From Thermoplasmatota archaeon (lineage in GTDB: Archaea > Thermoplasmatota > Penumbrarchaeia > Penumbrarchaeales > EX4484-36), in the NCBI GenBank assembly GCA_029932465.1, contig JAOZQA010000002.1, forward strand, positions 18,992-82,991: a stretch of DNA of 64,000 bases, given 5' to 3'. A program made the position numbers and the translations under genes. Below, piece by piece: positions 18,237 through 43,748 of the stretch. Below the pieces are notes generated by a model. The model ran no database searches, was not told where the DNA came from, and was given only the letters and a program-made list of their open reading frames with translations. Position 1 is the first letter of the stretch. Each line of letters opens with the position of its first letter.

Positions 18237-19193
18237 TCATCCCATAGCTTTTTTCTCTCTTCTGACCCTCCCGGGGAGATAGTAGGTTCTGCCCCGATAC
18301 TCCACGGGAACCATCGCACCCCCCATCTTCATAACCTCCATCACCGCTCTGGCATCCTCCACCCCCCAGCTTTTGAGAGTGCTCTCTATCTGCTCCTCCC
18401 TCATTGGATGCCTTAAGAGAATCCTGAGAATCCCCCCAATAGGGTCATCACCCTGAAGGACGAACTCACCACTCTCCAGTGCTGTAATTTCAAGTCCGTT
18501 TAGAAGCCTGTGGGCGTTGAAAAGGGCCTCGGGGGAGGGGGGCCTCACCCAGCTCTCCGCAGGGGGCCTGATGGGGATGTTGATGTACACCCTCTCGGGC
18601 TTAAGCAGACCAAAGTACTCTTTTAGGGCTTGAAGCTCCTCCTCGCTGTCGTTGAGCCCATCAACCAGCATTACCTCCACCCATATCTCTCCGGAGTATT
18701 CATCCCTCAAGGAAAGTAGACCCTCCAGGACTTCCTCAAAGACTAGGTCCCTGTGGGGCCTGTTGATCTTCTTCCAGGTCATCTCCACCGCCGTGTCGAC
18801 AGTAGGTGAGATCACGTCTGCACCGCTGACCTCCTCCCTCACCAAAGGAGAATAAAAGAGAGAGCCATTGGTTATGACGGAGACCGGGAAGGAATAGGCT
18901 TCCTTCACCCCGTCGATAAGATATTCCAAAGGGGTGTACAATGTGGGCTCCCCATCTCCGACGAAGGTTATGTAATCAATCCCCTCCTCAGCCCTCTTTA
19001 CACCCTCTCTGATCTCCTCAAGAAGCTCCTCTTTAGGAAAAAACTCCCTTCTCCTGTTGGTCATGTTTATGGTTCTTCCAAGCTGGCAGTAGACGCAGGA
19101 GTAGTTGCACGTCTTGAAGGGGATAGTGCTTACTCCAAGCGATCTTCCGAATCTTCGGGAAGGAACGGGACCGTAAACCCATCTGAGGGACAT
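18237..19193 (-). CDS. Radical SAM domain protein (function unknown)
   Basis: 318 aa; 'CNYSCVYCQLG' CxxxCxxC motif preceded by conserved 'YGPVPSRRFGRSLGV'. Confidence 0.7.
   Translation of the reverse strand: MSLRWVYGPVPSRRFGRSLGVSTIPFKTCNYSCVYCQLGRTINMTNRRREFFPKEELLEEIREGVKRAEEGIDYITFVGDGEPTLYTPLEYLIDGVKEAYSFPVSVITNGSLFYSPLVREEVSGADVISPTVDTAVEMTWKKINRPHRDLVFEEVLEGLLSLRDEYSGEIWVEVMLVDGLNDSEEELQALKEYFGLLKPERVYINIPIRPPAESWVRPPSPEALFNAHRLLNGLEITALESGEFVLQGDDPIGGILRILLRHPMREEQIESTLKSWGVEDARAVMEVMKMGGAMVPVEYRGRTYYLPGRVRREKKAMG
18249..18264 (+). terminator. T-rich tract downstream of hydA (candidate archaeal terminator)
   Basis: 'CTTTTTTCTCTCTTCT' 20 nt after the hydA stop, between convergent genes. 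Confidence 0.35.
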
Positions 19194-20912: not shown

Positions 20913-21065
20913 ATGGCTGACGGCGACTCCATTGAGACTCTTCTTAAGGAGATCGAGAAGATGTCAGTCACCATGCGGGAGAAGAACTACAATTACTTTA
21001 AAATCAAGGATGAAAAGGTACCCAAAGGGCTCTGTTTCAAGCCGTGGATAAGGAGAGCCTCGTAA
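20913..21065 (+). CDS. Small hypothetical protein (50 aa), not in ORF track
   Basis: ATG preceded by a strong 'GGAGGTG' RBS at -12..-6 and an upstream TATA box; translation MADGDSIETLLKEIEKMSVTMREKNYNYFKIKDEKVPKGLCFKPWIRRAS. Confidence 0.35.
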   Translation: MADGDSIETLLKEIEKMSVTMREKNYNYFKIKDEKVPKGLCFKPWIRRAS

Positions 21066-22279
21066 CTGTTTTTAACCAGTATCCTCTTTCCCCCCCTATG
21101 CAGGCACCAAAATGGTTCAGCCAGATTCCGATTTTCGTTCTCGTTGCTGCACTTTTTTTGATCCTTCTGCCTCTTCCGTGGAGCATCGTTCGGACCCCTG
21201 AGGGAGGTAAGCAAATGGGGGCCGTCTCATATGAGATCGATGCCCATCTCACCCCATGGAAGGCCGATTACAACGTAACCGCCAGGGTGGGCGAAGGGGG
21301 TTTCCTTGGAGGTTTTGGTGGAGGCAACAACATAACCGTTGAAGGTGAACGCTACTACGTAACTGGCGGCGCCGAGGCGCTGGAGGACATCGGCATCATC
21401 TACGACAGTTATAAGGTTAAGGAGGGGAGGATCAGGATTAAGGCCCGGGAAGGGTTTGTAAACCTGACAGTGAGGGTGGAGGTTGACATGATCCCCTTCT
21501 ATAGGGAAGGTTCTGACATCACTGTAAGAGTTTTGACTAGGGTGGAGGAGGCCCTTGTCGCTTTTAAAGAGATAAGGGTTGAGGGGGTTAAGATAATTCT
21601 GAAGCGCCACTGGAGTGATGATGCCCTCACCTACCTTAAGAACACAACGCTGAGGTTTGACCCCGGGGTAAAGAACACCATATATGACCCCAATGACGGG
21701 CTCAAATGGGAGCTGAAGGTGAAGATGCCTAAAGGAGAGGGAAGGGTGGGGGTAACTGCCCTGCTGGACATCTCCTTCAAGGATTCCGAGGGCAGAGAAG
21801 AGGATTACATTGTCACTTCGGCCCCCAACCCCATAAACCTCTACCCGGTCACCACTTCCCAATTCGTGAGCCTATCTGGACTTGCCGCTGCCGGGCTGGA
21901 GGGCACGGCAGGGGCCCTTCTCGCTCTGCTGGCACCCCTTATCAGGCGAAGGGGGAGGCTGAAGAGGGGGCTTCAGGTGGCAGGTGCTGTCCTCCTTCTC
22001 GTCTCACCGCTGCACTTCGTCTCCTCCGTCGGGACCATTGGGGATCTTCTGGCTTTGAGAATAAGCGGCGCGAAGGAAATGATCTCCCTGACCGCCATTC
22101 CCTACGCTTTGCTCGCCCTGGCAGCGTTGCATCTCATCCTTGTACTCCTTGGGGTCTTCGGCATTCTGAAGCTCTCTGCCGGGGAGAAAGAAGAGGAGAT
22201 GAAGGAGGAGGAAAGAGGGGAAGGTCTATCTGAGAAGGAGGAGGCACTCTCAGAGGGGCTCTTCAGAAGGGTTGAATGA
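21044..22279 (+). CDS. Membrane/exported hypothetical protein
   Basis: 411 aa; N-terminal TM/signal ('IPIFVLVAALFLILLPL'), large beta-rich middle, three C-terminal TM helices and an acidic tail; start uncertain (may be 'MQAPKW' at ~21098). Confidence 0.45.
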   Translation: MDKESLVTVFNQYPLSPPMQAPKWFSQIPIFVLVAALFLILLPLPWSIVRTPEGGKQMGAVSYEIDAHLTPWKADYNVTARVGEGGFLGGFGGGNNITVEGERYYVTGGAEALEDIGIIYDSYKVKEGRIRIKAREGFVNLTVRVEVDMIPFYREGSDITVRVLTRVEEALVAFKEIRVEGVKIILKRHWSDDALTYLKNTTLRFDPGVKNTIYDPNDGLKWELKVKMPKGEGRVGVTALLDISFKDSEGREEDYIVTSAPNPINLYPVTTSQFVSLSGLAAAGLEGTAGALLALLAPLIRRRGRLKRGLQVAGAVLLLVSPLHFVSSVGTIGDLLALRISGAKEMISLTAIPYALLALAALHLILVLLGVFGILKLSAGEKEEEMKEEERGEGLSEKEEALSEGLFRRVE

Positions 22280-22768: not shown

Positions 22769-23200
22769 ATGTCATCTGAAGTAAAGGATGAGGAAAAGGT
22801 CTCTGTGGAGAGGTTGTCCCTTAAGGATTTCAACATCAGCGACGAGTACGACACCGTCACAGCGGAGGATCCCCTCAAAGAGGCTGCTGGCAAACTCATA
22901 ACCCTGAAAAACGGCGTGGTCTTTGTCATGTCTGGAGATGTTCCTGTGGGTATCATTGCCGGGGAGGAGGTCATAGCTGCCGTCAGCGACGGGAAGGGTC
23001 CAGAAACCCCCTGCAGGGAGGTGGCATCCACCAGGATACTGAAGATATCCTACGACATCAAGATGACGGAGCTCATACCCCTGCTGGTGAAGGAGAGGCC
23101 CAGGGCCATTGCTGTAATGGATGAGAACGAACACTTCAAGGGATATTTCTCCCCTAAGGACTACACCGAGGCGCTGAAAAAGGCCGGGATCATCCCGTGA
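22769..23200 (+). CDS. CBS-domain pair protein
   Basis: 143 aa; two CBS-like repeats ('VVFVMSGDVPVGIIAGEEV', 'AIAVMDENEHFKGYFSPKD'). Confidence 0.6.
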   Translation: MSSEVKDEEKVSVERLSLKDFNISDEYDTVTAEDPLKEAAGKLITLKNGVVFVMSGDVPVGIIAGEEVIAAVSDGKGPETPCREVASTRILKISYDIKMTELIPLLVKERPRAIAVMDENEHFKGYFSPKDYTEALKKAGIIP

Positions 23201-24104
23201 GGGCTATTATCAAATAGTAGATAAGCGGCATAAGAAGATTGCCGCCCAAAAGCGTGAGGAGAAAACCAGCAGTTAAGAAGAGTATGAAAGGGGTCTTGGG
23301 GGTTGCCCAGTAGGTTCCATTCTCCGTTACCTCCTGGCTATCCTCTTTCACCAGCCTTCCCTCCCTTTCCACGTAAACCCACCAGTGCCCTCTTTTCGCC
23401 TCTTCCAGTTCCAGCCTGCGGGAAGTGAAGAAGAACCGAAGAGGTGCACCCCCATCCTTTATGTTGACAGCCGAGAAGTAGATTATCGACGCGAGAAGAC
23501 TGAGAAGGGCCGCGTTTATGAGGGTCGAGAAGGAGGGTGGGAAAATCACAAGAAGGGGATGGGGAATCCCAAAATTCGTAAGCAACGGGAGGGATTTCAT
23601 GCAGGAGTAGGTGGGCAATAGGATGGAGAGAACCTGAAGTGCCTTGACGTCGGCACCGCCGTGGAGGAGGTAGATACCCCCTGCGGGTATGAAGAAGAGG
23701 GCAAGATAGAGTCCTTCGAGAAGAAGAGCTACAAAGGCCGGCTGGTAGGTGCTCCGGTAGGACATTAGGTCTTTCAGCACGATAATCGCAGAGAGAATAT
23801 AAAGAAGGAGGAAGGCCCAGTCAAGTGGGTTCCCCCGCCTCAAGTCCTCAGCGGAGGGATAACCTACAAGGAGAACGGAGAGGAGCGCAAACATTGGTAT
23901 GATAAGAAGCGCTCCCCAAAGCCCCGAGCTCCTATACTGGGCAAATCCCATCAGTGTAAGGGCTATCAGCGAGGAGATCCACCAATGGAGGTCAGGAACC
24001 TGTCTCTTCTTCAGGTCAAAAATTGAAGCAGACACCATGGTGACCATATAAATGCTCAGAGAAATCCACAAAAGAGGAGAGGGCACGTAGTCCGATGTAA
24101 TCAC
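23190..24104 (-). CDS. A24-family aspartic membrane peptidase (archaeal prepilin/preflagellin peptidase, FlaK/PibD/EppA-like)
   Basis: 304 aa polytopic; first catalytic Asp motif 'FDLKKRQVPD' and second 'GGADVKAL'; ~100-aa C-terminal extension. Confidence 0.6.
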   Translation of the reverse strand: MITSDYVPSPLLWISLSIYMVTMVSASIFDLKKRQVPDLHWWISSLIALTLMGFAQYRSSGLWGALLIIPMFALLSVLLVGYPSAEDLRRGNPLDWAFLLLYILSAIIVLKDLMSYRSTYQPAFVALLLEGLYLALFFIPAGGIYLLHGGADVKALQVLSILLPTYSCMKSLPLLTNFGIPHPLLVIFPPSFSTLINAALLSLLASIIYFSAVNIKDGGAPLRFFFTSRRLELEEAKRGHWWVYVEREGRLVKEDSQEVTENGTYWATPKTPFILFLTAGFLLTLLGGNLLMPLIYYLIIALTG

Positions 24105-24661
24105 CCCTTACAGAGCCTTTCAGCCTTCTCTTTGATCTTTCTGGCGAGTGTGGGATTCATCCCCTCTACCCTGAGGAGGTCTCTAATCTCCGCCTCGGCG
24201 ACCTCTTCAAGCGTCCGGTAGCCGGCCGCATGGAGGGACTGAGCCCTCACCTCATCAAGTCCAAGGTACGCTCTGAAGAGGGATATCGCATCATCCCCTC
24301 CCGCCATTCTGTCAACATGCTTTGCGCTGATCACCCCTGCTTCTATCCTCCTCCCGTAGCTCTCTGAGAAGCCCTCCACCAAGGCGGCCTCCCCGTAGAG
24401 GAGCACTACACTCTGTTCGTTCACACTGACGCTTTTCAGTCCTATAAGCGCATTACCGCCCTTCTCCTGGACCTGTCTCAGGAGCTCCTCCATCGCCTCG
24501 TCAAAAAGCTCCTCCAGAAGAGGACCAGAGGGGGGCAGTCCAGGGACCTCCCCGGGGAGCTCTATTGCCTTCCTTACAATCCCAAGACGCCTCTTTATCT
24601 TCACCCCGGGAGGTGAATCAGAAAGGGTGATGAGCACCCTCTCACCTCCCTGCAGCCGCAA
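24101..24661 (-). CDS. YbjQ/UPF0145-domain protein fused to tandem helix-hairpin-helix motifs
   Basis: 186 aa; N-terminal YbjQ-like region ('RVLITLSDSPPGVKIKRRLGIVRKAI...GGNALIGLK'); C-terminal 'LGLDEVRAQSLHAAGYRTLEEV...LLRVEGMNPTLARKI' HhH pair. Confidence 0.5.
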   Translation of the reverse strand: MRLQGGERVLITLSDSPPGVKIKRRLGIVRKAIELPGEVPGLPPSGPLLEELFDEAMEELLRQVQEKGGNALIGLKSVSVNEQSVVLLYGEAALVEGFSESYGRRIEAGVISAKHVDRMAGGDDAISLFRAYLGLDEVRAQSLHAAGYRTLEEVAEAEIRDLLRVEGMNPTLARKIKEKAERLCKG

Positions 24662-27600
24662 TCCTTCTTTTCAGGTAAAGCCTCCTTATGACCTCAGCGG
24701 TGAGGAGACCTACGCCCGTTATAAAAAGGGCGTCCAGGAGGAGGGAGCCCTTCACCCGGTCAGGATGACTTTCGGCACCGAAGGGGGTGTGGCCGCCGAT
24801 GTTCACGGGGCTGCGGAGCGCCTCGGGCTGGCCCCAGGCGTGCATTGGCGAGAAGACCTTCAGGTCCGGATCCCCGTAGAAGACCAGGTTCTCGAAGATG
24901 TCCCACCACCAGGCGTCCAGCAGATACTCTATGCCCACGTGCGCTATCCCCCTCTCATATGCCTCACCCACGGTATAGTTGTAGTATATGTCCTTGACGA
25001 AGGTTTCCATGGCAAAGGAGGAGTACCAAGATGTGAGCCAGGGGTCTATAACCTGGAAGACGGAGCCGTGCCTGACGAGGGAGAGATGAAGGTAGGTATT
25101 AGCTATGAGGCAGCTGCCGGCCGAGAAGCCCATGGAGTGAATGTTATCAAGGGCTTCATCTATCTGTAGGCCGCGGTTGCTGTACTCGGTCTGGCGCTGC
25201 TGCAGGAGTGCTATGACCACTCCATCGTGTGTCTCAGGGATTATTCCGGCATCAGTCACAGGGCCGAACCCGGGCTGCACATCGAGACCTATATGCTTGT
25301 TCATTGTGGCCACGTCCGGGTCATCGGTAGCACCCCTGAGCCTCTGAAGGTCGCCGCTTACAGGAATCCCGTTCTCCTCATAACCCCTCCACGGGTCTCT
25401 TTCCTCGTTGGCGTCCGGGTTCCACCACCCCACTACTCCCGACTCAGTATGTCCTCCGTGCATGACCTCAAGCCACATGATGACCCCACGATTCAAGTTC
25501 TCCACTGTCCTCTCAAAGGTTGTTGTCTGAACATGGTCATACCCTATCTTCTCCAGGTAATAGGGGACCATCTCGGAGGTGTCTATGTCCGGCCAGACGC
25601 CATTGGGGTCTATTGGGTCATCTGAGGGGGTCTCCCCGGGGACTATCCCGGTCCTTGTTGTGTACTTGCACCCCCAGTACTCGCTCCCCCTCTCGTTGAA
25701 CTTGTACTGATAGGATACCCAGGTCTCCTGCACAGCATACCTAGTCTGAACCTCTCTCTCCTTCTCGACGATCCTGAGCACCCCTCCCACCCTGGTAGAG
25801 GAGGAACCCTGCCACCTCATCCCGTCATGCTCATCCAGGGCTGGGTTCACGGCAGGGTTAGCAAAAATGATCTGGGGGTAGAAGATGGAGCGGGAGATCC
25901 AGGCAGCGGCATCCACTGGAGAGCCCATGATTCTTCCAGCCTGGGCCGCCCCAACCAAGGCCCTGTCCCAGGAGGTGCCTATGTCGAATTGGTCCGCTAC
26001 GGTTATTATGCTCTCCTTCACCCCTTTTATTCCTCCTATCTCAGCTCCCATTTGCATGAGGAAGCTGTAGATTGCCTTTCCCTCAAGGACCATACAGCCC
26101 ACCGAGGGCGGGAGCCTGCTGGGGTAGGCCTTGAGCCAGAAGTTGTTGTGCCACGCCTGAGCCTGGGAGAGCCTTCGATGGACGTCTGTTATGAAGACGG
26201 GGCTGCCGTGGTGGGCAGCGGCTAGTGTGGCGGGGCCCACGAAGTATGCCCCGGGGAACTCCCCCTTAGGATTCTCCCTCCTCGCTGCAACGTACCAGTA
26301 GGACCAGGGGTCTACAGTAGTGAAGACTACATCGCCGGTGGGTTTCCCGTCGGTGCCGGCCCTGGAGATGATCTCACGATAGATATCCACGTAGGAGGTT
26401 ATCCTCTTAACCTTGATCTCCTTCTGCAGAAGCCCCCTCGCCCTGTCTATCCCCTTGAAAAGGCCCTCCCCAGCGTGTCCACCCAGGTCCACCACGTATA
26501 CCTTCTCCACGCCCAGCAGGTTAAGGGCATCTTTGACCTCACCCGGTAGCCTGCCATAAGGGACGTAGAGAAGAGGAGCGTTAAGAAGGGATGCCAGAAC
26601 CGCCCCATTGGTAGCCGAGGCAAAGGAGTCGCCCTCCCTCGGGTCTTTCACCTGCCTGAAAGAGTAGGAGAGCTTGAATTCGGTGGAGGAGCCTTCAAGG
26701 TTGACCACAGCCACCCTGTAGCGGCCCATGCCCAGGCTCTTCACTTCAAGAACCTGACGTCTGGACTGAGTAGAGTCCATCGCAGTTGTCACCTCAGCCC
26801 CGTTCTCATCCAGAAGGATTATTCCCAAGCGCGCCGAGGGGTCATCCCAGCTCACCTCAAAAGTGGCGTCCCTACTGTAGAACGGCACCTCATCGGGGAT
26901 GTCTATCTCCACCCCGGGGTAGAGTGTATAGTCTATTCTATAGTTCACCTCAGCGCTCCAAGGCTGTTCAGGATTCACCCTCTCCAAAATGCGGGGATTT
27001 CTCTCGAAGTAGTCTGTGAGGGCCTTCTGGTACTCATAGCTCTCGGTGGGCATGTAGGTGACGGCGAACTTCCACTCTCCGCTGTGGTAAACGTAGGAGG
27101 CGACGTGCTCCGAGGCGCCGGTTAGGACGTTCCATTCCTCAGAGGCGGCGACCTCTCCAAGCTGCATGTCGTAGAGCTGAAGGTCTGGATCCTTCCCCCG
27201 GGCGAGGAGCTCCCCAAGTTGCGTCTGGCTCCATGTCATAACGGCGTCTATGTACTTGTACCCCTCCCCAACTGTGAAGGGGTGCTCGTTGGGGTCCACT
27301 GGGGAGGGCATTTTGCTCCCTTCAACGCTGCCTTTTTCGGGACTCGCGGAGGGTGTGACCCCCTCAAGCTCCCCGGATATCTCCCTATCCGGCTGGGGTG
27401 GAGAGGGGTCTATCACCGCTATTACTGCTACTCGGGAATACTTCCAGCCATCCTTTGCCAGTGCTGCGGAGACCTCCCAGGGGCCCTCCCCCTCAATGGT
27501 GTTCACCTCCTCCGCCTTCCACTCTCCCCCAATCTGTGCGGGGGGAGTACTGAAACCCAAGAGATTGATTCTCTTCAAGGAGCCCCCGTTAACCGTGAGG

Positions 27601-27989
27601 ACATCCTCCATCAGGTACTTCACAGCGGGGTAGGAGTTGAGCGTCTTCTCCTCGTCGGATGTTGTCTCCCGGGGGGGAGTGTAGAAGAGAACGGGCGAGG
27701 AGACGATTTTATTGTCCTCCCGGCTGTAGAAGGTAGTGTAGGGGACAGCGGCGATGTAGTAGTAGTCGTCAAGAGCCCCCTCGGGGTCGTAGTTCACAAG
27801 AGTGGCAGAGCTCACCGGGACCACTCTCAGAGTGGAGACACCCTCAAATCCCGGGCTGGAAAGTCTGTCGGACTCCCTGCTGGAGGCGGAGGTGGAAAGC
27901 AGCGGAGGGAGGATTATCAAAGCCGCAATCAGAGTCATCAAAAGAAGTCTTCTCGGTCTCCCGCTGAGGACCTGCTTCATAATCATCAC
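24642..27989 (-). CDS. Large exported, C-terminally anchored protein with a putative transglutaminase-like/papain-like Cys-His-Asp core
   Basis: 1115 aa; Sec signal ('RRLLLMTLIAALIILPPLL'); C-terminal TM 'LFITGVGLLTAEVI'; candidate triad context 'GFSAGSCLIANTYLHLSLVRHG' ... 'AHVGIEY' ... 'FYGDPD'. Confidence 0.45.
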   Translation of the reverse strand: MMIMKQVLSGRPRRLLLMTLIAALIILPPLLSTSASSRESDRLSSPGFEGVSTLRVVPVSSATLVNYDPEGALDDYYYIAAVPYTTFYSREDNKIVSSPVLFYTPPRETTSDEEKTLNSYPAVKYLMEDVLTVNGGSLKRINLLGFSTPPAQIGGEWKAEEVNTIEGEGPWEVSAALAKDGWKYSRVAVIAVIDPSPPQPDREISGELEGVTPSASPEKGSVEGSKMPSPVDPNEHPFTVGEGYKYIDAVMTWSQTQLGELLARGKDPDLQLYDMQLGEVAASEEWNVLTGASEHVASYVYHSGEWKFAVTYMPTESYEYQKALTDYFERNPRILERVNPEQPWSAEVNYRIDYTLYPGVEIDIPDEVPFYSRDATFEVSWDDPSARLGIILLDENGAEVTTAMDSTQSRRQVLEVKSLGMGRYRVAVVNLEGSSTEFKLSYSFRQVKDPREGDSFASATNGAVLASLLNAPLLYVPYGRLPGEVKDALNLLGVEKVYVVDLGGHAGEGLFKGIDRARGLLQKEIKVKRITSYVDIYREIISRAGTDGKPTGDVVFTTVDPWSYWYVAARRENPKGEFPGAYFVGPATLAAAHHGSPVFITDVHRRLSQAQAWHNNFWLKAYPSRLPPSVGCMVLEGKAIYSFLMQMGAEIGGIKGVKESIITVADQFDIGTSWDRALVGAAQAGRIMGSPVDAAAWISRSIFYPQIIFANPAVNPALDEHDGMRWQGSSSTRVGGVLRIVEKEREVQTRYAVQETWVSYQYKFNERGSEYWGCKYTTRTGIVPGETPSDDPIDPNGVWPDIDTSEMVPYYLEKIGYDHVQTTTFERTVENLNRGVIMWLEVMHGGHTESGVVGWWNPDANEERDPWRGYEENGIPVSGDLQRLRGATDDPDVATMNKHIGLDVQPGFGPVTDAGIIPETHDGVVIALLQQRQTEYSNRGLQIDEALDNIHSMGFSAGSCLIANTYLHLSLVRHGSVFQVIDPWLTSWYSSFAMETFVKDIYYNYTVGEAYERGIAHVGIEYLLDAWWWDIFENLVFYGDPDLKVFSPMHAWGQPEALRSPVNIGGHTPFGAESHPDRVKGSLLLDALFITGVGLLTAEVIRRLYLKRRIAAAGR

Positions 27990-28037
27990 CTGGAGGTAAC
28001 AGATTCCTAATATGCCAGGGCGTTTAAATTTATCGGT

Positions 28038-28466
28038 TCAGTCCTCACTTTTCACGCCCCTCAGGACCACCTTCTTCGCCCCCTTCTTCTTCGGCTTTTC
28101 AAGCCTTATGAGGTTGAGCTTCAGAAGAATCTCTATGAAGGAATCCACCACCTTGTCCGCCGGCTCCACCCGCTCCTTAAACCTCTCCCCCACAAGGTAG
28201 ATTATCTCCGCCAGAGAGTGTTCCCCATCGCATAGGATCCATATGGAGCTTCCCACCTCATCAAGGGGCCTCTTTATGGTGGTGGGCCCACCAAGGTACC
28301 TGTGCAGAAATCTCTCAAAGCGCGTGAAGTTCTTGGGGTACTCCAGAACGACCCTCTCCCCTCTGTAATACCACTTCACAGGCATCCTTACTGGATATAT
28401 CTGGTTGAGAAGAATACTTTTTTTCAGTTTGAGCGCAATGCTCCCAGTCGACGGCTCCTTGTCCAA
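28038..28466 (-). CDS. PqqD-family (RiPP recognition element-like) protein
   Basis: 142 aa; 'SSIWILCDGEHSLAEIIYLVGERFKERVEPADKVVDSFIEILLKLNLIRL' matches the PqqD winged-helix pattern (iW.l.DG..t..eI...l...y.v....a..dv..fl..L...gli). Confidence 0.5.
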   Translation of the reverse strand: MDKEPSTGSIALKLKKSILLNQIYPVRMPVKWYYRGERVVLEYPKNFTRFERFLHRYLGGPTTIKRPLDEVGSSIWILCDGEHSLAEIIYLVGERFKERVEPADKVVDSFIEILLKLNLIRLEKPKKKGAKKVVLRGVKSED

Positions 28467-28477
28467 CCTTCACCCTC

Positions 28478-28657
28478 CTACTCGGGTATGTAGTCCCAGA
28501 CCAGATATATGAAGAGCATCACCGAGACAGCGCCCATGGCTGCGAAGAGTGTTGTGAGTTTTCTGTTCCGCAGGGAGTATTTAGCAACGTACGTCAAGGG
28601 CACCGCCGCCACAGCGATCACGATAGATATTACCGCCAGCGTCTCCCTGAGGGTCAT
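28478..28657 (-). CDS. Small two-helix membrane protein (59 aa), not in ORF track
   Basis: ATG with GGAGG RBS 5-9 nt upstream; translation MTLRETLAVISIVIAVAAVPLTYVAKYSLRNRKLTTLFAAMGAVSVMLFIYLVWDYIPE; stop lies 12 nt before the PqqD-like start. Confidence 0.4.
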   Translation of the reverse strand: MTLRETLAVISIVIAVAAVPLTYVAKYSLRNRKLTTLFAAMGAVSVMLFIYLVWDYIPE

Positions 28658-28682
28658 TCCTCCCCACCTACCCTATCCCCCT

Positions 28683-28690
28683 ATATAAAC
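28683..28690 (+). promoter_or_regulatory. TATA box (TATATAAA) upstream of the gfcR-like/lysK unit
   Basis: In the divergent intergenic region 28658-28757. Confidence 0.35.
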
Positions 28691-28757
28691 TTTTTTCTTG
28701 TGTGTGGCAATTCTCAAGGAGGCCCTGCGCAAAGTAGATATTCCTTGACACTTTTTA

Positions 28758-29375
28758 GTGAGCGGTGGTAGTATGGACGGAGGCATAGAGCACCTGGTTG
28801 AGAAAGCGCTTTCCCTCCGGGAGAAGGGGCTGACCCGAAAGGAGATCGCCCTTGAACTTCATCTCTCCGAGGAGACCGTCTCTTGGCTTCTCGCCCGGGG
28901 TGTGAAGGCTGAGAAGCCCCCAGCCGACATATACATCGGCTGGAGGTCCATCGGGATATATCCAGACAGGCTGAATCGCATAGCAATCATAATAGCAGAC
29001 ATCATAGATGAGGAGATGCAGAAAAAAGATGATTACGTTGAAACTGTGGTGGGCATAGCCTTGAACGGAATCCCTCTGGCCACCCTTGTAGCTCTCCAGC
29101 TAAACCTTGAGTTCACCATCTTCAGGCCCACCTATCAGGAGGGGGAAGGTATTGTGAAAGGGGCCTTCGCCTCCAATTACGCAGGGGTTGAGGGGAAAAG
29201 GGTTGTCATTGTTGACGACGTGCTCTCAAGCGGGACCACCATGGCTAAGACGATAGAAGCCGTTAGGGAGCATGGAGGAACCCCTGTCCTGGCATGCGTA
29301 GTGGTTAACAAGACCAGACGGGACGAGATAGACGGTGTCCCCTTAAGGGGCCTTATACGCACGAACGTAGTCTGA
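28758..29375 (+). CDS. Orotate phosphoribosyltransferase-like regulator (GfcR/PyrE-like, HTH plus PRTase domain)
   Basis: N-terminal HTH ('LTRKEIALELHLSEETVSWLLARG'); PRTase PRPP motif 'VVIVDDVLSSGTTM'. Confidence 0.65.
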   Translation: MSGGSMDGGIEHLVEKALSLREKGLTRKEIALELHLSEETVSWLLARGVKAEKPPADIYIGWRSIGIYPDRLNRIAIIIADIIDEEMQKKDDYVETVVGIALNGIPLATLVALQLNLEFTIFRPTYQEGEGIVKGAFASNYAGVEGKRVVIVDDVLSSGTTMAKTIEAVREHGGTPVLACVVVNKTRRDEIDGVPLRGLIRTNVV

Positions 29376-39923: not shown

Positions 39924-42900
39924 ATGAATTTGCATGGGACGCAGGTGATGGTGTTTGTTGCGGCGAGTGTGCTTTCTCTTGCTATCCTGACCACTGCATT
40001 CACCCAGAACGGCGATCAGGAGCTGAAAGAGGGGGAGCTACATGTGGGCGAAGGTTATGAGTTCCCCTCAGTTCAGATCGCTATAGATTCAGCGGCGGAG
40101 GGCTCTACAATCGTGGTGCACTCAGGTGAGTACCATGAGAGACTTTTCATCTATCGTGGAATAACCCTTAAAGCTGCCCCGGGGGAAAGCTTTCATCTTG
40201 CGGCATCCTCCGATGACCCCGGCCCTCCCGGGACAAGGGGTGCAGCCCTCATTATCACATCCTCTTCCCCCGTGACCATCAACGGGGGTACCTACTCCTA
40301 CTCGGGAGGCACGTGGAACGATGCCGCCATAAAGATCCAGTATGGTTATGGACATACGATCCAGAACGCAAATATCAAAGACAGCAAACAAGGCATTTGG
40401 GTTCACGGAGGGGACTTAAGAACATCTCTCTCCTGTGGGAACATAAGGATCTCAGGCAACACAATTCAGAACATAAGTGGCCATGGAATATACCTGCAGA
40501 GGTCCTATGCCAATATCTACGGTAACACCATCTCTCTATGTGGGGAGGGCATTATGGTGGCCCACGGGTACACCTCCTCCGGTGGGGGAATATGGGGCAA
40601 CGAGATTCACAACTCAACCGTTGGAGTCTTCCTTGAAAGCGACTGGGTTCCCAAACTTGATCAGAACACCTTTTCTGACTGCCAATGGGGTGTTTACCTT
40701 AACGATACCTCTTCCCCTCTTACCTTAAACAACAATGACTATTACCGCTGCTCAGTGGGAATGTTCTATCGGGGAAGCAACGGACCGATACTCGACCAAG
40801 AGGTATATTATAATTGCACCACTGCCCTTCACACAGGAGCGGCAGGAGGGGGGAAGCTTATTGTGCGCTCCTGCGAAATTTACGGATCAGAGGGCTACTC
40901 AATAAACCTCACAACGCAGATTGACGCACGGGGATTGAGGGTGGTAGGGGCAGGGGGTACCCTTTTCAAACTGGGAAATAATGGTGACATTTCCATTCAC
41001 GATTCCTATCTGGAGACCTCCAGAGAGTCCTTGAGGGCCATAGGCACTGGAAGCATTACCATGATGAACACCACCTTAAGCTCTCTCTCCCGCTCCTTTG
41101 TCTCAGAAGATTCTGTCCTGGTGGAACTGAGCCAATGCAACTTTACCTCCCGGGAGAACAGCTTTGTTATGGAGGGGGGTGGGAGCCTTCACTCAGCGAA
41201 TTCTGATTTTACCTCCACATCCGGTAGGGCCCTTAAGCTTTCCAATTTGACGAGGTCCTATCTTCAGGGCGGCGGTGCATTCTCCGACGGGGCTCAGGTG
41301 ATATACCTCTTCCGATGCGTGGATTTCAATCTAAACAATGTTAAGATAACAGGGAGCAATGGTGCCGGGCTTTTCCTGAAGGAATCGCAGAGGGTCTTAG
41401 CCTCCTATCTGAGGATAGATGGAAACCTCTCGGAGGGGATTATAATTACCGGCGAAGGCCAGGATTTCCTCAGACACACTATCGGAGAGACGAACACCTT
41501 CGGCGGCAAGCCCATATACTATATCTATGGGGAGAGCGGGGGGGTCTTCAACCTAACGGATAAAGGTGAGGTGATCATAGCAGGCACAACGGACGCTGTT
41601 ATAAGAGAAGTGGGGTGTTCCCCAGGCTCTACGTGGGTTCTTGGATCTCAGAATGTGACCTTTCTCAACTCAACCCTTGAACAGGGCCTCCATACAATAG
41701 ATTCCAGTGATATCAACGGCGAAAACCTTCTTCTCAGGCCCTCCTCTTATTCAGGAGTCTCCCTCCTTATGGAGAACTCTACACTTCACCTCTTCAACTC
41801 AACGCTCTTTGAGGGCATAGGGAGCTCGGAAACCTTCTACCTCTCCCGCTCCTCCCGGGCCCACTTCTACAACACCACCTTTTCAGGCTACGGATACATA
41901 GACTCCTCCACCCTTACCACCTACCATCTGATTGGACTTAAGGTCCTCTTCTCCGACGATGTAGCAGCCCCCGGGGTGGAGTATCTCCTGAGCCTAGATA
42001 ATTCAACCTTCCGCGCCACTGCCCTCTTTTCAGGGACTTCCCCTCCAACGGATGAGAACGGCACAGCAGGCCCATGGTGGATCCCGCACATTACCTATGA
42101 TGATTCCTCCCTGACCGAACATCTCTTTACAATAACGGTGAACGCAACTGTGGATAGGTCATGGCAGGAGGAGAGGAGCGTCAATACCTCCTTTGACCAT
42201 ATTGAGGTTTTTAGGACCTCAGACATAAGAGCACCGGCGATACCTTCAGGCGTTGAAGCGCATCCAGTGGAAGGGGGAGATGAGATCCTTATCACCTGGA
42301 AAGACAACGAGGACGACACGGACCTCTACAGGGTCTATCTGGTTGGAAACACCCTTCAGCTTCTCGGAGAGAGCACTAGCGCCTCCTTCAGGGATGTGGG
42401 GGTTGAGAATGGCACTTCAAGGACCTACAGGGTCAGTGCAGTGGACGAAGAGGGAATAGAAAGCGACCTCTCGCCTCCCGTCACGGCAATTGCAAGGGAT
42501 TACGTACCCCCAGAGAGGCCCTCATCCCTGTGGGTGGTAGGATACGGCGGAATAAACGCCACACTTCTTTGGTCGGAATCGTCCTCAGAGGACGTGGTCA
42601 TTTACAGGATTTTTGTGGCCATGGGAAGGAGAGGGGGTGGGGGAATAGAAGGTTTCCTTCTGGCAGGAGAGACCACGGATAACACCTTTGAGGTTTTTGA
42701 CCTCCTTCCGGAGACCGAATACACCCTCACAGTGCTCGCCTATGATGAGGCTTCCAATCCCTCCCTCCCAGCTCCCATGGCGTACATCACAACCCCAGAC
42801 ATAACGTGGCCTGTTGTCTCAAACCTCACATGGAAGGTTGACCTTTATCAGGTAACGGTGGAGTGGGACACCGATCAGGTGACGCAGGGGACTCTGCATC

Positions 42901-43748
42901 TGGGCACCTCCACTGAGAACATGCAAGAATATAGCGAGGAGGAATATTCACTTCACCACACGATTTTTGTGGATCGTCTAGCCCATAACGCTACATATTA
43001 CTTCTGGGTCTATTCGGAGGAGCCTTCAGGGAACAGCGTCGCAGATGACAACGGGGGGAACTTCTACACATTTAAGACACCACCCTTTGAAGGCTACCTG
43101 AGAATTGAAATTCTATCTTCAAGAGACGGTACTTTTATCACAGGCGCCGCCGTCAGGGCTTCGGGGAGAAGCGCTCAAATGGGCCTCGCTGAGATCTCCC
43201 CCGGGGTCTATTCGGGAACACTTGAGCCGGGCCCCTGGACAATCAGTGTAAACGCAGATGGGTTCGTCTCTCCATCTCCCTTCGATGTGGAGGTTAAGAT
43301 CCTCAAGTGGACCAACTTGACGCTCAACATGACACCCGCCGGGCCTCCATTATGTAACCTTTCAATAAGGATTGTGGATAAGGACGGTAGGGGAATTGAA
43401 GGGGCTTCTCTCACCTTTGAAGGGATGGAGTACACCTCTGATGAGGATGGGTGGGTCCACCTGGGTTATGTACCATCTAACGCCACATATACCCTCACGG
43501 TGGAGGGCGAAGGCTACAATAAAAGGAGCGTTAAGGTGGAGATTCCCTACGGAGAGGAGGAGGTGGAGGAGAAGATAACCCTGAAGAAGGAGGGAGGAGG
43601 GTCCCTTCTTTGGTTGGCAGTGCTCCTGATAGCTTTAGTTGGAGCCCTAGGGGCGGTTTTTTACATGAGAAGCAGAGGGAAGGGGGAGGCAAAAGCCAAG
43701 GAAAGACCCCCAGAGGAGGAGCCGGAGGTTAAGAGCGGGAAGGTGTGA
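39924..43748 (+). CDS. Giant surface protein: signal peptide, right-handed parallel beta-helix (pectate-lyase/NosD-like) repeats, FN3/Ig-like and carboxypeptidase-regulatory-like domains, C-terminal TM anchor
   Basis: 1274 aa; repeated 'GN.I.......GI.L' beta-helix motifs; FN3-like 'YRVYLVGNT...YRVSAVDEEGIESDLS'; very many N-x-S/T sequons; C-terminal 'LLWLAVLLIALVGALGAVFYMRSRGK' then a charged tail. Confidence 0.7.
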   Translation: MNLHGTQVMVFVAASVLSLAILTTAFTQNGDQELKEGELHVGEGYEFPSVQIAIDSAAEGSTIVVHSGEYHERLFIYRGITLKAAPGESFHLAASSDDPGPPGTRGAALIITSSSPVTINGGTYSYSGGTWNDAAIKIQYGYGHTIQNANIKDSKQGIWVHGGDLRTSLSCGNIRISGNTIQNISGHGIYLQRSYANIYGNTISLCGEGIMVAHGYTSSGGGIWGNEIHNSTVGVFLESDWVPKLDQNTFSDCQWGVYLNDTSSPLTLNNNDYYRCSVGMFYRGSNGPILDQEVYYNCTTALHTGAAGGGKLIVRSCEIYGSEGYSINLTTQIDARGLRVVGAGGTLFKLGNNGDISIHDSYLETSRESLRAIGTGSITMMNTTLSSLSRSFVSEDSVLVELSQCNFTSRENSFVMEGGGSLHSANSDFTSTSGRALKLSNLTRSYLQGGGAFSDGAQVIYLFRCVDFNLNNVKITGSNGAGLFLKESQRVLASYLRIDGNLSEGIIITGEGQDFLRHTIGETNTFGGKPIYYIYGESGGVFNLTDKGEVIIAGTTDAVIREVGCSPGSTWVLGSQNVTFLNSTLEQGLHTIDSSDINGENLLLRPSSYSGVSLLMENSTLHLFNSTLFEGIGSSETFYLSRSSRAHFYNTTFSGYGYIDSSTLTTYHLIGLKVLFSDDVAAPGVEYLLSLDNSTFRATALFSGTSPPTDENGTAGPWWIPHITYDDSSLTEHLFTITVNATVDRSWQEERSVNTSFDHIEVFRTSDIRAPAIPSGVEAHPVEGGDEILITWKDNEDDTDLYRVYLVGNTLQLLGESTSASFRDVGVENGTSRTYRVSAVDEEGIESDLSPPVTAIARDYVPPERPSSLWVVGYGGINATLLWSESSSEDVVIYRIFVAMGRRGGGGIEGFLLAGETTDNTFEVFDLLPETEYTLTVLAYDEASNPSLPAPMAYITTPDITWPVVSNLTWKVDLYQVTVEWDTDQVTQGTLHLGTSTENMQEYSEEEYSLHHTIFVDRLAHNATYYFWVYSEEPSGNSVADDNGGNFYTFKTPPFEGYLRIEILSSRDGTFITGAAVRASGRSAQMGLAEISPGVYSGTLEPGPWTISVNADGFVSPSPFDVEVKILKWTNLTLNMTPAGPPLCNLSIRIVDKDGRGIEGASLTFEGMEYTSDEDGWVHLGYVPSNATYTLTVEGEGYNKRSVKVEIPYGEEEVEEKITLKKEGGGSLLWLAVLLIALVGALGAVFYMRSRGKGEAKAKERPPEEEPEVKSGKV

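What the first reader, a model, noticed from the sequence alone, without database searches (positions are those of the whole stretch)
23190..28657. Uncharacterised five-gene operon: small membrane protein, PqqD-like RRE protein, 1115-aa exported protein, YbjQ-HhH fusion, A24 prepilin-peptidase-like protease
All five genes are on the minus strand with gaps of 12 nt and 48 nt, then 20-nt and 4-nt overlaps, so they are probably one transcript. The promoter and TATA box in the 28658-28757 region face the opposite gene. The combination is not a described system. PqqD-like RRE domains normally chaperone peptides to RiPP enzymes. A24 peptidases process class III signal peptides of pilins. The large protein is Sec-exported and membrane-anchored, with a possible papain/transglutaminase-like catalytic core. 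One hypothesis is a peptide- or pilin-like maturation and cross-linking system for a cell-surface structure. Another is a non-canonical RiPP-like pathway in which the 59-aa product is the substrate.
Basis: partly seen in the sequence, partly recalled or inferred. Interest (0 to 1): 0.75.

Follow-up and report, generated by a model that had tools for sequence, protein, structure and literature searches.

The report
Three gene modules, one gingipain-like protease
The five tightly packed genes are real, but they are three separately conserved archaeal gene modules that sit together only in one lineage; the most notable part is a large cell-surface protein that is predicted to fold like the bacterial gingipain proteases, although sequence searches do not recognise it as one.

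Summary
Five minus-strand ORFs at 23190-28657 are separated by gaps of 11 and 48 nt and by overlaps of 20 nt (or a 4-nt gap) and 4 nt. The source is an uncultured Thermoplasmata archaeon.

Four domain calls hold:
- g5 is a FlaK-like A24 aspartyl peptidase with both Asp motifs invariant.
- g4 is YbjQ plus (HhH)2.
- g1 is a conserved 2-TM microprotein.

The "one system" reading is weak:
- g3 stands alone among housekeeping genes in most Thermoplasmatota.
- g1-g2 lies about 0.5 Mb from g3 in a complete genome.
- g5 orthologues mostly lack g3 and g4 as neighbours.
- The linkage is confined to one clade. There, the g1|g2 and g4|g5 junctions are tight and the g2|g3 and g3|g4 junctions are loose.

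No RiPP enzyme and no class III signal-peptide substrate lies in the cluster. I rate interest as moderate, mainly for g3.

The parts
28682..28696 (-). Archaeal promoter-like element: TTTATATA (28682-28689) preceded by an A-rich BRE-like stretch, 25 nt upstream of the g1 ATG.
   Evidence: Sequence read. Only two exact TTTATATA copies exist in 64 kb. That it functions as a promoter is inferred, not shown.
28478..28657 (-). g1: a 59-aa membrane microprotein with two helices and a conserved basic loop (AKY-x-[WL]-[RK]-x-R-K-L-T).
   Evidence: ORF. Homologues sit directly upstream of g2 orthologues in clade A and in four unlinked loci.
28038..28466 (-). g2: a stand-alone PqqD-like RRE protein (142 aa) with conserved YPKN and RRPLD motifs and a charged tail.
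24642..27989 (-). g3: a 1115-aa (probably 1112-aa) exported protein with a C-terminal membrane anchor. It is multidomain, with a gingipain-fold domain in the C-terminal half.
27882..27989 (-). g3 signal peptide (residues about 1-36): basic n-region, hydrophobic helix 11-31, STSASS c-region.
   Evidence: Sequence. Low-confidence N-terminal helix in the model. Some homologues have a lipobox-like SGC/TGC instead. Cleavage is inferred.
26265..26633 (-). g3 CWB2-like alpha/beta module (residues about 453-575). Further CWB2-like modules are probable at about 56-200 and about 580-720.
24840..26267 (-). g3 gingipain-like region (residues about 575-1050). The putative catalytic residues are His844 (25458-25460) and Cys960 (25110-25112).
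   Evidence: H844-G845 and C960 are invariant in 76 sequences. Each follows a predicted beta-strand: E838-842 and E953-957. Equivalence to RgpB H211/C244 is inferred from topology, not from a residue-level superposition.
24681..24749 (-). g3 C-terminal transmembrane anchor (residues about 1081-1103), followed by a basic tail RRLYLKRR.
   Evidence: Sequence. Helix 1083-1113 in the model. A hydrophobic segment plus basic tail is conserved in the alignment.
24101..24661 (-). g4: a cytoplasmic protein made of a YbjQ/UPF0145 domain plus (HhH)2 (186 aa, or 178 aa from GTG 24637).
   Evidence: Pfam HHH_5 at 35.4 bits, above the cut-off of 27; YbjQ_2 at 23.1 bits, below 29.1. Family profile A4 against PDB: UPF0145 2gtc at 9e-8, 1vr4 at 7e-7, NusA C-terminal repeats at 1e-9.
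23190..24104 (-). g5: a FlaK-like A24B GxGD aspartyl membrane peptidase (304 aa). The catalytic residues are Asp30 (24015-24017) and Asp152 in HGGAD (23649-23651).
   Evidence: Family profile A3 against FlaK 3s0x gives E 6e-19, with both Asp motifs aligned. D30 and H148-G-G-A-D152-x-K154 are invariant in 17 sequences. NCBIfam FlaK_Arch gives a weak hit.
22769..23200 (+). Convergent CBS-domain gene that overlaps the g5 3' end by 11 nt. It is conserved next to g5 throughout the clade.
   Evidence: Pfam CBS. Present downstream of g5 in 16-18 clade-A loci. It shows that block synteny extends beyond the co-directional genes.

Best explanation
The locus is a lineage-specific juxtaposition of three independently conserved Thermoplasmatota gene modules. 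They are probably co-transcribed in this compact genome from a BRE/TATA promoter upstream of g1. They are not an obligate five-part machine.

Module 1 is g1-g2: a two-helix membrane microprotein and a cytoplasmic stand-alone RRE (PqqD-like) protein. The RRE most likely binds a short peptide segment by beta-strand addition. The conserved basic loop of g1 is a candidate for that segment. This is inferred.

Module 2 is g3. It is exported by a Sec signal and tethered by a C-terminal helix. Its ectodomain carries CWB2-like modules, two beta-sandwich domains and a gingipain-fold (clan CD) domain with an invariant His844-Gly / Cys960 pair. I infer that it is an active cell-surface cysteine endopeptidase, or possibly a transpeptidase. 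Its substrates would be envelope proteins, or environmental proteins taken up as food.

Module 3 is g4-g5: a cytoplasmic YbjQ-(HhH)2 protein translationally coupled to a FlaK-like GxGD aspartyl peptidase. This is probably the lineage's general class III signal (prepilin/pre-archaellin-type) peptidase.

Shown: gene structure, domain and fold assignments, invariant residues, and the distribution of neighbourhoods. Inferred: catalytic activity, substrates, co-transcription, and any interaction between the modules.
For: - Structure and spacing.
- Promoter element.
- CWB2.
- g3 is autonomous. Of 80 loci from 213 relatives, only about 19 carry g5 and about 15 carry g2 nearby. All of these have g3 at 52% identity or more to the window. 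In about 25 loci of another clade g3 lies between GINS/Sir2/AdoHcy hydrolase and the DNA primase subunits, on mixed strands.
- g1-g2 is autonomous. In CP070751.1 the pair is at about 4.45 Mb and g3 at about 3.93 Mb. The same g1-g2-Zn-ribbon block occurs in three more genomes.
- g5 is autonomous. Of 404 metagenomic relatives, the 80 best were fetched and 78 are listed; 73 of those have a full-length g5 ORF. Most lack g3 and g4 beside them.
- Within the clade, the g1|g2 gaps are 3-9 nt (one apparent -29 overlap from ORF calling) and the g4|g5 gaps are -4 to 10 nt. The g2|g3 gaps are -17 to 215 nt and the g3|g4 gaps are 55 to 323 nt.
- g2 is an RRE. g5 is FlaK-like. g4.
Against: - The block g1-g2-g3-g4-g5 is kept in two deeply diverged sub-lineages (g5 only about 30% identical, g4 about 25-32%) although the upstream flank differs: DnaJ/DnaK/GrpE in one, PRT/LysRS in the other. 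This could reflect selection for co-expression.
- In this genome the junctions are so tight that a single transcript is likely.
- No residue-level superposition was available, so the catalytic equivalence of H844 and C960 is topological only.
- Foldseek did not put gingipains in its top 50. Beta-sandwich matches, Cwp6 and PorU ranked instead.
- No sequence method links g3 to family C25.
- Presence or absence of the modules elsewhere in incomplete MAGs could not be surveyed.
Confidence: 0.6

Rival explanations
1. The five genes form one dedicated maturation system for a surface structure. The RRE protein g2 presents a peptide or protein (g1 or another substrate) to the proteases g3 and g5, which then process or cross-link it. 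Alternatively, it is a non-canonical RiPP pathway with g1 as precursor.
For: - Tight co-directional packing with start/stop overlaps and a promoter only upstream of g1.
- The block is retained in two diverged sub-lineages with different upstream flanks.
- g2 has a true RRE fold whose closest structures bind leader peptides.
Against: - Most g3, g1-g2 and g5 orthologues are unlinked.
- There is a compartment mismatch: g2 and g4 are cytoplasmic, while the g3 catalytic domain is extracellular.
- No radical-SAM, YcaO, lanthipeptide or lasso B2/C enzyme lies in the cluster.
- g1 is a conserved 2-TM hairpin of fixed length, unlike a leader/core precursor.
- The convergent CBS gene is conserved as well, so block synteny is not specific to an operon.
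- The other clade-A genomes share a long syntenic region including the DnaK operon. They therefore count as roughly one independent observation.
Confidence: 0.12
2. g3 is mainly a nutritional extracellular protease of a protein-degrading archaeon, comparable to the C25, C11 and S8 peptidases reported for sedimentary Thermoplasmatota. Its neighbours are incidental.
For: - Gingipain fold with an intact dyad.
- The same window encodes a 1632-aa S8 subtilase with PKD domains and other large secreted proteins.
- The literature reports canonical C25, C11 and C13 genes and their expression in MBG-D MAGs (PMC6461988).
- In other lineages the g1-g2 pair lies next to OPT oligopeptide transporters.
Against: - g3 is unusually conserved for a feeding protease: 35-55% identity over about 1100 aa across classes, with many invariant Trp, Gly and Pro residues.
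- It is usually present in one or two copies.
- It is embedded among replication and chaperone genes.
- It is membrane-tethered with CWB2-like modules, as in the envelope-processing enzyme Cwp84 (my own knowledge). This fits an envelope role at least as well.
Confidence: 0.3
3. g3 is a structural surface or S-layer-type protein whose gingipain-like domain is catalytically dead.
For: - It is large, exported, anchored and widely conserved, with CWB2-like and beta-sandwich modules as in C. difficile S-layer/Cwp proteins.
- No sequence similarity to active C25 enzymes.
Against: - His-Gly and Cys are invariant in all 76 aligned sequences, at the strand ends expected for clan CD.
- Pseudo-enzymes usually lose these residues.
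Confidence: 0.1

Closest known systems
Gingipains RgpB/Kgp and PorU (MEROPS family C25, clan CD) of Porphyromonas gingivalis
   Different: No detectable sequence similarity: Pfam PF01364 does not match, a PDB profile search finds nothing, and hhalign finds nothing. About 115 residues separate His and Cys, against 33 in RgpB by my recollection. The insertion carries conserved NPWRGYE and DPD motifs. The host is archaeal. Anchoring is by a C-terminal TM helix instead of a T9SS C-terminal domain. CWB2-like modules are present.
Clostridioides difficile Cwp proteins (three CWB2 domains plus an enzyme domain), e.g. Cwp6, Cwp8 and the SlpA-processing cysteine protease Cwp84
   Different: The protease domain of Cwp84 is papain-like (C1A), not clan CD. 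The CWB2 modules of g3 are interrupted by beta-sandwich domains. Thermoplasmatota lack the PSII polymer that CWB2 binds in C. difficile. Any ligand here is unknown.
RiPP recognition elements (PqqD, lasso-peptide B1 proteins TbiB1/TfuB1)
   Different: No RiPP enzyme or plausible precursor is adjacent, here or in the four unlinked loci. g2 has a conserved N-terminal extension (YPKN motif) and is always paired with a 2-TM microprotein.
Archaeal preflagellin/prepilin peptidases FlaK, PibD and EppA (MEROPS A24B)
   Same: Both catalytic Asp motifs (D-x-[KR]-x-R-x-[IV]-P-D and GGAD-x-K) and the Arc_PepC_II C-terminal region are present. The profile matches FlaK 3s0x at E 6e-19.
   Different: The window protein does not reach the Pfam or NCBIfam thresholds on its own. 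No class III signal-peptide substrate or archaellum/pilus genes lie nearby. The coupling to a YbjQ-(HhH)2 gene is not described for FlaK, to my knowledge.

Membership tests
Clan CD cysteine peptidases / family C25 (gingipain) | Caspase-haemoglobinase alpha/beta fold of the catalytic domain | tested here: met
Clan CD cysteine peptidases / family C25 (gingipain) | Catalytic dyad in the order His(-Gly) then Cys, each at the C-terminal end of a beta-strand | tested here: inconclusive
   H844-G845 and C960 are invariant in 76 sequences and follow strands 838-842 and 953-957. No residue-level superposition on RgpB H211/C244 was available.
Clan CD cysteine peptidases / family C25 (gingipain) | Sequence match to the family model (Pfam PF01364 Peptidase_C25) or to solved gingipains | tested here: not met
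   No Pfam hit at E <= 0.1 for 13 members. PDB profile searches with the full-length and the C-terminal profiles find no gingipain. hhalign against an RgpB sequence recalled from memory finds nothing.
Clan CD cysteine peptidases / family C25 (gingipain) | Peptidase or transpeptidase activity that depends on the Cys | not testable with these tools
   This needs an enzyme assay of the ectodomain and a C960A mutant.
PqqD / RiPP recognition element (PF05402) | Match to the family HMM above the curated threshold | tested here: met
   PF05402 at 32.6 bits against a cut-off of 23.4, residues 68-120. The NCBIfam PqqD-type equivalog and exception models all score below their cut-offs.
PqqD / RiPP recognition element (PF05402) | Winged-helix fold with a three-stranded sheet, as in leader-binding RREs | tested here: met
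PqqD / RiPP recognition element (PF05402) | Genomic association with a RiPP-modifying enzyme and a precursor peptide | tested here: not met
   No such enzyme lies in the cluster or next to g1-g2 in four other genomes. g1 is a conserved 2-TM protein. A radical-SAM gene 4 kb away (18237-19193) lies beside hydrogenase genes and is separated from the cluster by unrelated genes.
Peptidase A24B (FlaK-like GxGD aspartyl peptidase) | Two catalytic Asp residues in their motifs (first-TM D-x-[KR]-x-R-x-x-P-D, and GxGD-type) | tested here: met
   D30 and H148-GGAD152-x-K are invariant in 17 sequences. Both align to the FlaK motifs.
Peptidase A24B (FlaK-like GxGD aspartyl peptidase) | Significant sequence match to a characterised member or to the family model | tested here: met
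   Family profile against FlaK 3s0x: E 6e-19 over both halves. The single sequence is sub-threshold: Arc_PepC_II 24.9 bits against 29.9, and FlaK_Arch 36 bits against 330.
Peptidase A24B (FlaK-like GxGD aspartyl peptidase) | Class III signal-peptide substrates (pilins or archaellins) | tested here: inconclusive
   A regex scan of all window ORFs gave no convincing candidate. g3 and g1 lack the motif. The rest of the genome was not available.
YbjQ / UPF0145 (PF01906, PF23025) | Sequence match to family members | tested here: met
   Family profile A4 against PDB UPF0145 proteins: 2gtc at 9e-8 and 1vr4 at 7e-7, over profile positions 6-111. The single sequence is below the Pfam cut-offs.
Single operon / dedicated five-gene system | Conserved co-occurrence of all components across lineages | tested here: not met
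   Linkage occurs only where g3 is at least 52% identical to the window's copy. Elsewhere the modules are apart.
Single operon / dedicated five-gene system | One transcript | not testable with these tools
   Only spacing and a promoter-like element upstream of g1 are available. A TATA-like ATAAATTTAAA lies in the g2|g3 gap.

The most novel reading that the evidence does not exclude
In this archaeal clade the gingipain-fold surface enzyme g3 would act like PorU, as a sortase-like transpeptidase or dedicated envelope-maturation protease. The co-expressed RRE protein with its microprotein, and the GxGD peptidase, would feed or regulate it. Together they would form an archaeal surface-protein processing pathway unrelated to archaeosortases.
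Probability: 0.1. Interest if true: 0.8.

Novelty: new variant of a known kind. Interest (0 to 1): 0.42.

Why it matters
Three points matter.

1. g3 defines a phylum-wide family. There are 213 species-level genome hits and about 25 full-length clusters at 50% identity. Databases label its members "hypothetical" or "cell wall-binding repeat protein". If g3 is an active clan CD peptidase, surveys of extracellular peptidases in sedimentary and marine Thermoplasmatota that rely on MEROPS or Pfam miss a conserved surface protease. The biology of the envelope in these uncultured archaea would also gain a concrete and testable enzyme.

2. The g1-g2 pair is a clean example of an orphan RRE protein. 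It is coupled to a membrane microprotein and has no RiPP enzyme. It may point to a non-RiPP use of the RRE fold.

3. The analysis also shows how a tightly packed "operon" can be a recent fusion of separate modules.

Tried and rejected
- Pfam and NCBIfam on g3 gave nothing beyond a weak CWB2 hit.
- A single-sequence PDB search with g3 gave only a chance laccase hit.
- A profile of the C-terminal domain alone against PDB at E <= 10 gave no hit.
That sequence is unverified, so I put no weight on this result.
- The afdb50 fold library was not available.
- The exact-sequence look-up of g3 failed because the database twin starts three residues later.
- tblastn and iterated HMM searches for g2, g4 and g5 next to distant g3 homologues found none.
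- The word-indexed search with g5 found only 6 relatives. The metagenome scan was needed to see the family.
- The class III signal-peptide regex found nothing convincing.
- I rejected the papain/transglutaminase core for g3 on the fold evidence, and g1 as a RiPP precursor or pilin on its conserved 2-TM hairpin and lack of a cleavage motif.
Full report
**Observation.**
- g1 28478-28657 (59 aa)
- g2 28038-28466 (142 aa)
- g3 24642-27989 (1115 aa)
- g4 24101-24661 (186 aa)
- g5 23190-24104 (304 aa)

The g1|g2 gap is 11 nt and the g2|g3 gap is 48 nt. The overlaps are 20 nt (g3|g4) and 4 nt (g4|g5). Two starts are probably slightly different. The 100%-identical database protein P0001 has 1112 aa, so g3 probably starts at ATG 27980, behind an AGGTGAT Shine-Dalgarno-like motif. 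The twin contig calls g4 at 178 aa, which turns the 20-nt overlap into a 4-nt gap. The source is an uncultured Thermoplasmata archaeon MAG.

The TTTATATA at 28682-28689 is on the minus strand. It is preceded by an A-rich BRE-like run and ends 25 nt before the g1 ATG. The octamer occurs only twice in the 64-kb window. I read it as the promoter of g1, not of the divergent gene. A weaker TATA-like ATAAATTTAAA sits in the g2|g3 gap.

**The small proteins.**
- g1 is a two-helix membrane hairpin with a conserved basic loop, AKY-x-[WL]-[RK]-x-R-K-L-T.
- g4 combines an N-terminal YbjQ/UPF0145 domain (profile against 2gtc 9e-8 and 1vr4 7e-7) with a C-terminal (HhH)2 like the NusA acidic repeats (1e-9).
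- g5 is a FlaK-like A24B peptidase. D30 and HGGAD152-x-K are invariant in 17 sequences. The family profile hits the FlaK structure 3s0x at E 6e-19, with both aspartate motifs aligned.

The family alignment has an invariant His844-Gly845 (WLEVMHGG) and an invariant Cys960 (HS-x-G-x-x-AGSC). Each lies directly after a predicted beta-strand, which is the arrangement that defines clan CD. I could not obtain a residue-level superposition, so equivalence to the gingipain dyad is inferred.

The CWB2 assignment also has sequence support: the family profile matches Cwp6 at E 4e-6.

The protein has a Sec-type signal peptide and a C-terminal hydrophobic helix followed by RRLYLKRR. The whole multidomain body is therefore outside the cell and tethered to the membrane.

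Sequence methods do not connect the catalytic domain to family C25 at all. Foldseek did not rank gingipains in its top 50, though Cwp6 and PorU appeared. An exhaustive HMMER scan of 1.84 billion cluster representatives found the catalytic region only in this family (117 hits at E <= 1e-30, fragments included). A second tier of 1000-2000-aa proteins shares only the beta-sandwich/CWB2 part. The papain/transglutaminase suggestion is therefore replaced by a gingipain-fold clan CD domain belonging to a family that has not been recognised by sequence.

**Is it one system?** A scan of one genome per species found 213 g3 relatives, all in Thermoplasmatota MAGs, and I analysed 80 loci.
- tblastn, iterated HMMs and clustering of neighbouring ORFs show g2 (15 loci), g4 (15) and g5 (19) next to g3 only where g3 is at least 52% identical to the window's copy.
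- In about 25 loci of another clade, g3 sits between GINS51/Sir2/AdoHcy hydrolase and the two DNA primase subunits, on mixed strands. Other lineages show still other neighbours.
- The g2 orthologue of the complete genome CP070751.1 lies at about 4.45 Mb, while its g3 lies at about 3.93 Mb. There, and in three further genomes, g2 is preceded by a clear g1 homologue and followed by a small zinc-ribbon gene and acetyl-CoA synthetase, divergent from OPT transporters.
- A metagenome scan found 404 g5 relatives. Of the 78 loci listed, 73 have a full-length g5 ORF. Apart from the window's own contigs, only a handful (L088, L089, L090, L095, L097, L108) have g3 or g4 beside g5. The marine ones typically have an 88-aa UPF0147 gene instead.
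- Within the linked clade, the g1|g2 junction is 3-9 nt (one apparent -29 overlap from ORF calling) and the g4|g5 junction is -4 to 10 nt. The g2|g3 junction ranges from -17 to 215 nt and g3|g4 from 55 to 323 nt.

The cluster is thus three modules: g1-g2, g3 and g4-g5. The convergent CBS gene downstream of g5 is conserved too. The non-window clade-A genomes share a long syntenic stretch including DnaJ/DnaK/GrpE. The linkage therefore rests on roughly two independent lineages and on block synteny, not on operon-specific conservation.

**Mechanism.** My best-supported reading (confidence about 0.6) has three parts.
- g3 is a membrane-tethered extracellular cysteine peptidase of the gingipain/caspase fold. 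Its CWB2-like and beta-sandwich modules position it on the envelope or bind substrates. The high conservation and the housekeeping neighbourhoods lean towards an envelope-maturation role. C. difficile Cwp84 (CWB2 plus a cysteine protease that processes SlpA) or the C25 sortase PorU would be analogues (my own knowledge). A feeding role is also plausible in an organism that encodes a large S8 subtilase nearby, and in a phylum known for extracellular C25/C11 peptidases (PMC6461988).
- g5 is most simply the lineage's class III signal peptidase. g4 is a clade-specific cytoplasmic partner of unknown role.
- g1-g2 is an orphan RRE-microprotein pair, and the RRE may dock on the basic loop of g1.

Co-transcription in this genome is likely but not shown. 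Functional coupling between the modules is not supported.

The RiPP hypothesis lacks any modifying enzyme, and g1 does not look like a precursor. The pilin hypothesis lacks a class III substrate: g3 has Sec-type or lipobox-type signals, and a regex scan of the window found nothing convincing.

**Novelty and score.** The individual kinds are all known: clan CD peptidase, RRE, A24B peptidase and YbjQ. What is new is a sequence-undetectable gingipain-fold family with a CWB2-like/TM-anchored architecture that is conserved across an archaeal phylum, and a conserved RRE-microprotein pair without RiPP enzymes. I rate the finding as a new variant of a known kind, interest about 0.4. The most novel reading still open is a PorU-like archaeal surface-processing pathway that uses all five genes. 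I give it about 0.1 probability.

Noticed in passing
L082:7818-10689, L084:7818-8565, L167:5798-9008, L169:5819-8108: In Methanomassiliicoccales and other Thermoplasmata genomes, the g1-g2 pair is followed by a 55-aa CxxC...CxxC zinc-ribbon gene (faint DUF7838 hit). In three of the four loci a protein of about 480-545 aa with a weak Gp10_C hit comes next. Acetyl-CoA synthetase follows in all four. The whole block is divergent from two or three OPT oligopeptide transporter genes.
   Followed up: partly
P0046, P0063, P0081 (alignment A1, columns 1-50): Several g3 homologues have a lipobox-like SGC/TGC at the end of the signal peptide, where the window protein has STSASS. Some family members may therefore be lipid-anchored at the N-terminus as well as TM-anchored at the C-terminus.
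   Followed up: no
L077:8001-~15000, L027, L066, L072; P0098, P0099: g3 paralogy. Several MAGs carry two copies on different contigs. L077 has two full-length copies in tandem. Some copies are 1600-1836 aa, with extra PKD/CARDB-type domains.
   Followed up: no
P0225, P0227, P0229, P0235 and others: A second tier of 1000-2000-aa proteins matches only profile positions about 350-710 of g3 (beta-sandwich plus CWB2-like modules) and lacks the gingipain-like domain. The envelope-binding part appears to be a reusable cassette.
   Followed up: no
window 58995-63893 (-) and 39924-43748 (+): Two other very large probable surface proteins lie in the window: a 1632-aa S8 subtilase with PKD and Big_5 domains, and a 1274-aa NosD/beta-helix protein with fn3 and CarboxypepD_reg domains. 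Both fit a protein- and polymer-degrading lifestyle.
   Followed up: partly
L086:1170-2520 and many marine loci L100-L166: Outside the window's clade, g5 orthologues are very often preceded by an 87-92-aa gene on the opposite strand (UPF0147 in L086). This is a conserved divergent pair that was not examined further.
   Followed up: no
window 23190-23200: The g5 3' end and the convergent CBS-domain gene (22769-23200, + strand) overlap by 11 nt. This CBS gene stays next to g5 in nearly all clade-A loci, although it is on the other strand.
   Followed up: partly
window 21044-22279 (+): A 411-aa protein with no Pfam match, an N-terminal hydrophobic segment, a C-terminal multi-helix hydrophobic region and an acidic tail. 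It is conserved only in the closest relative (L001).
   Followed up: no
window 28758-29375 (+): The divergent neighbour is a phosphoribosyltransferase with an N-terminal HTH (sub-threshold Sigma70_r4_2 hit), a PyrR/PurR-like arrangement. Related genes occur near g3 in three distant loci (L066, L076, L077), probably by chance.
   Followed up: no
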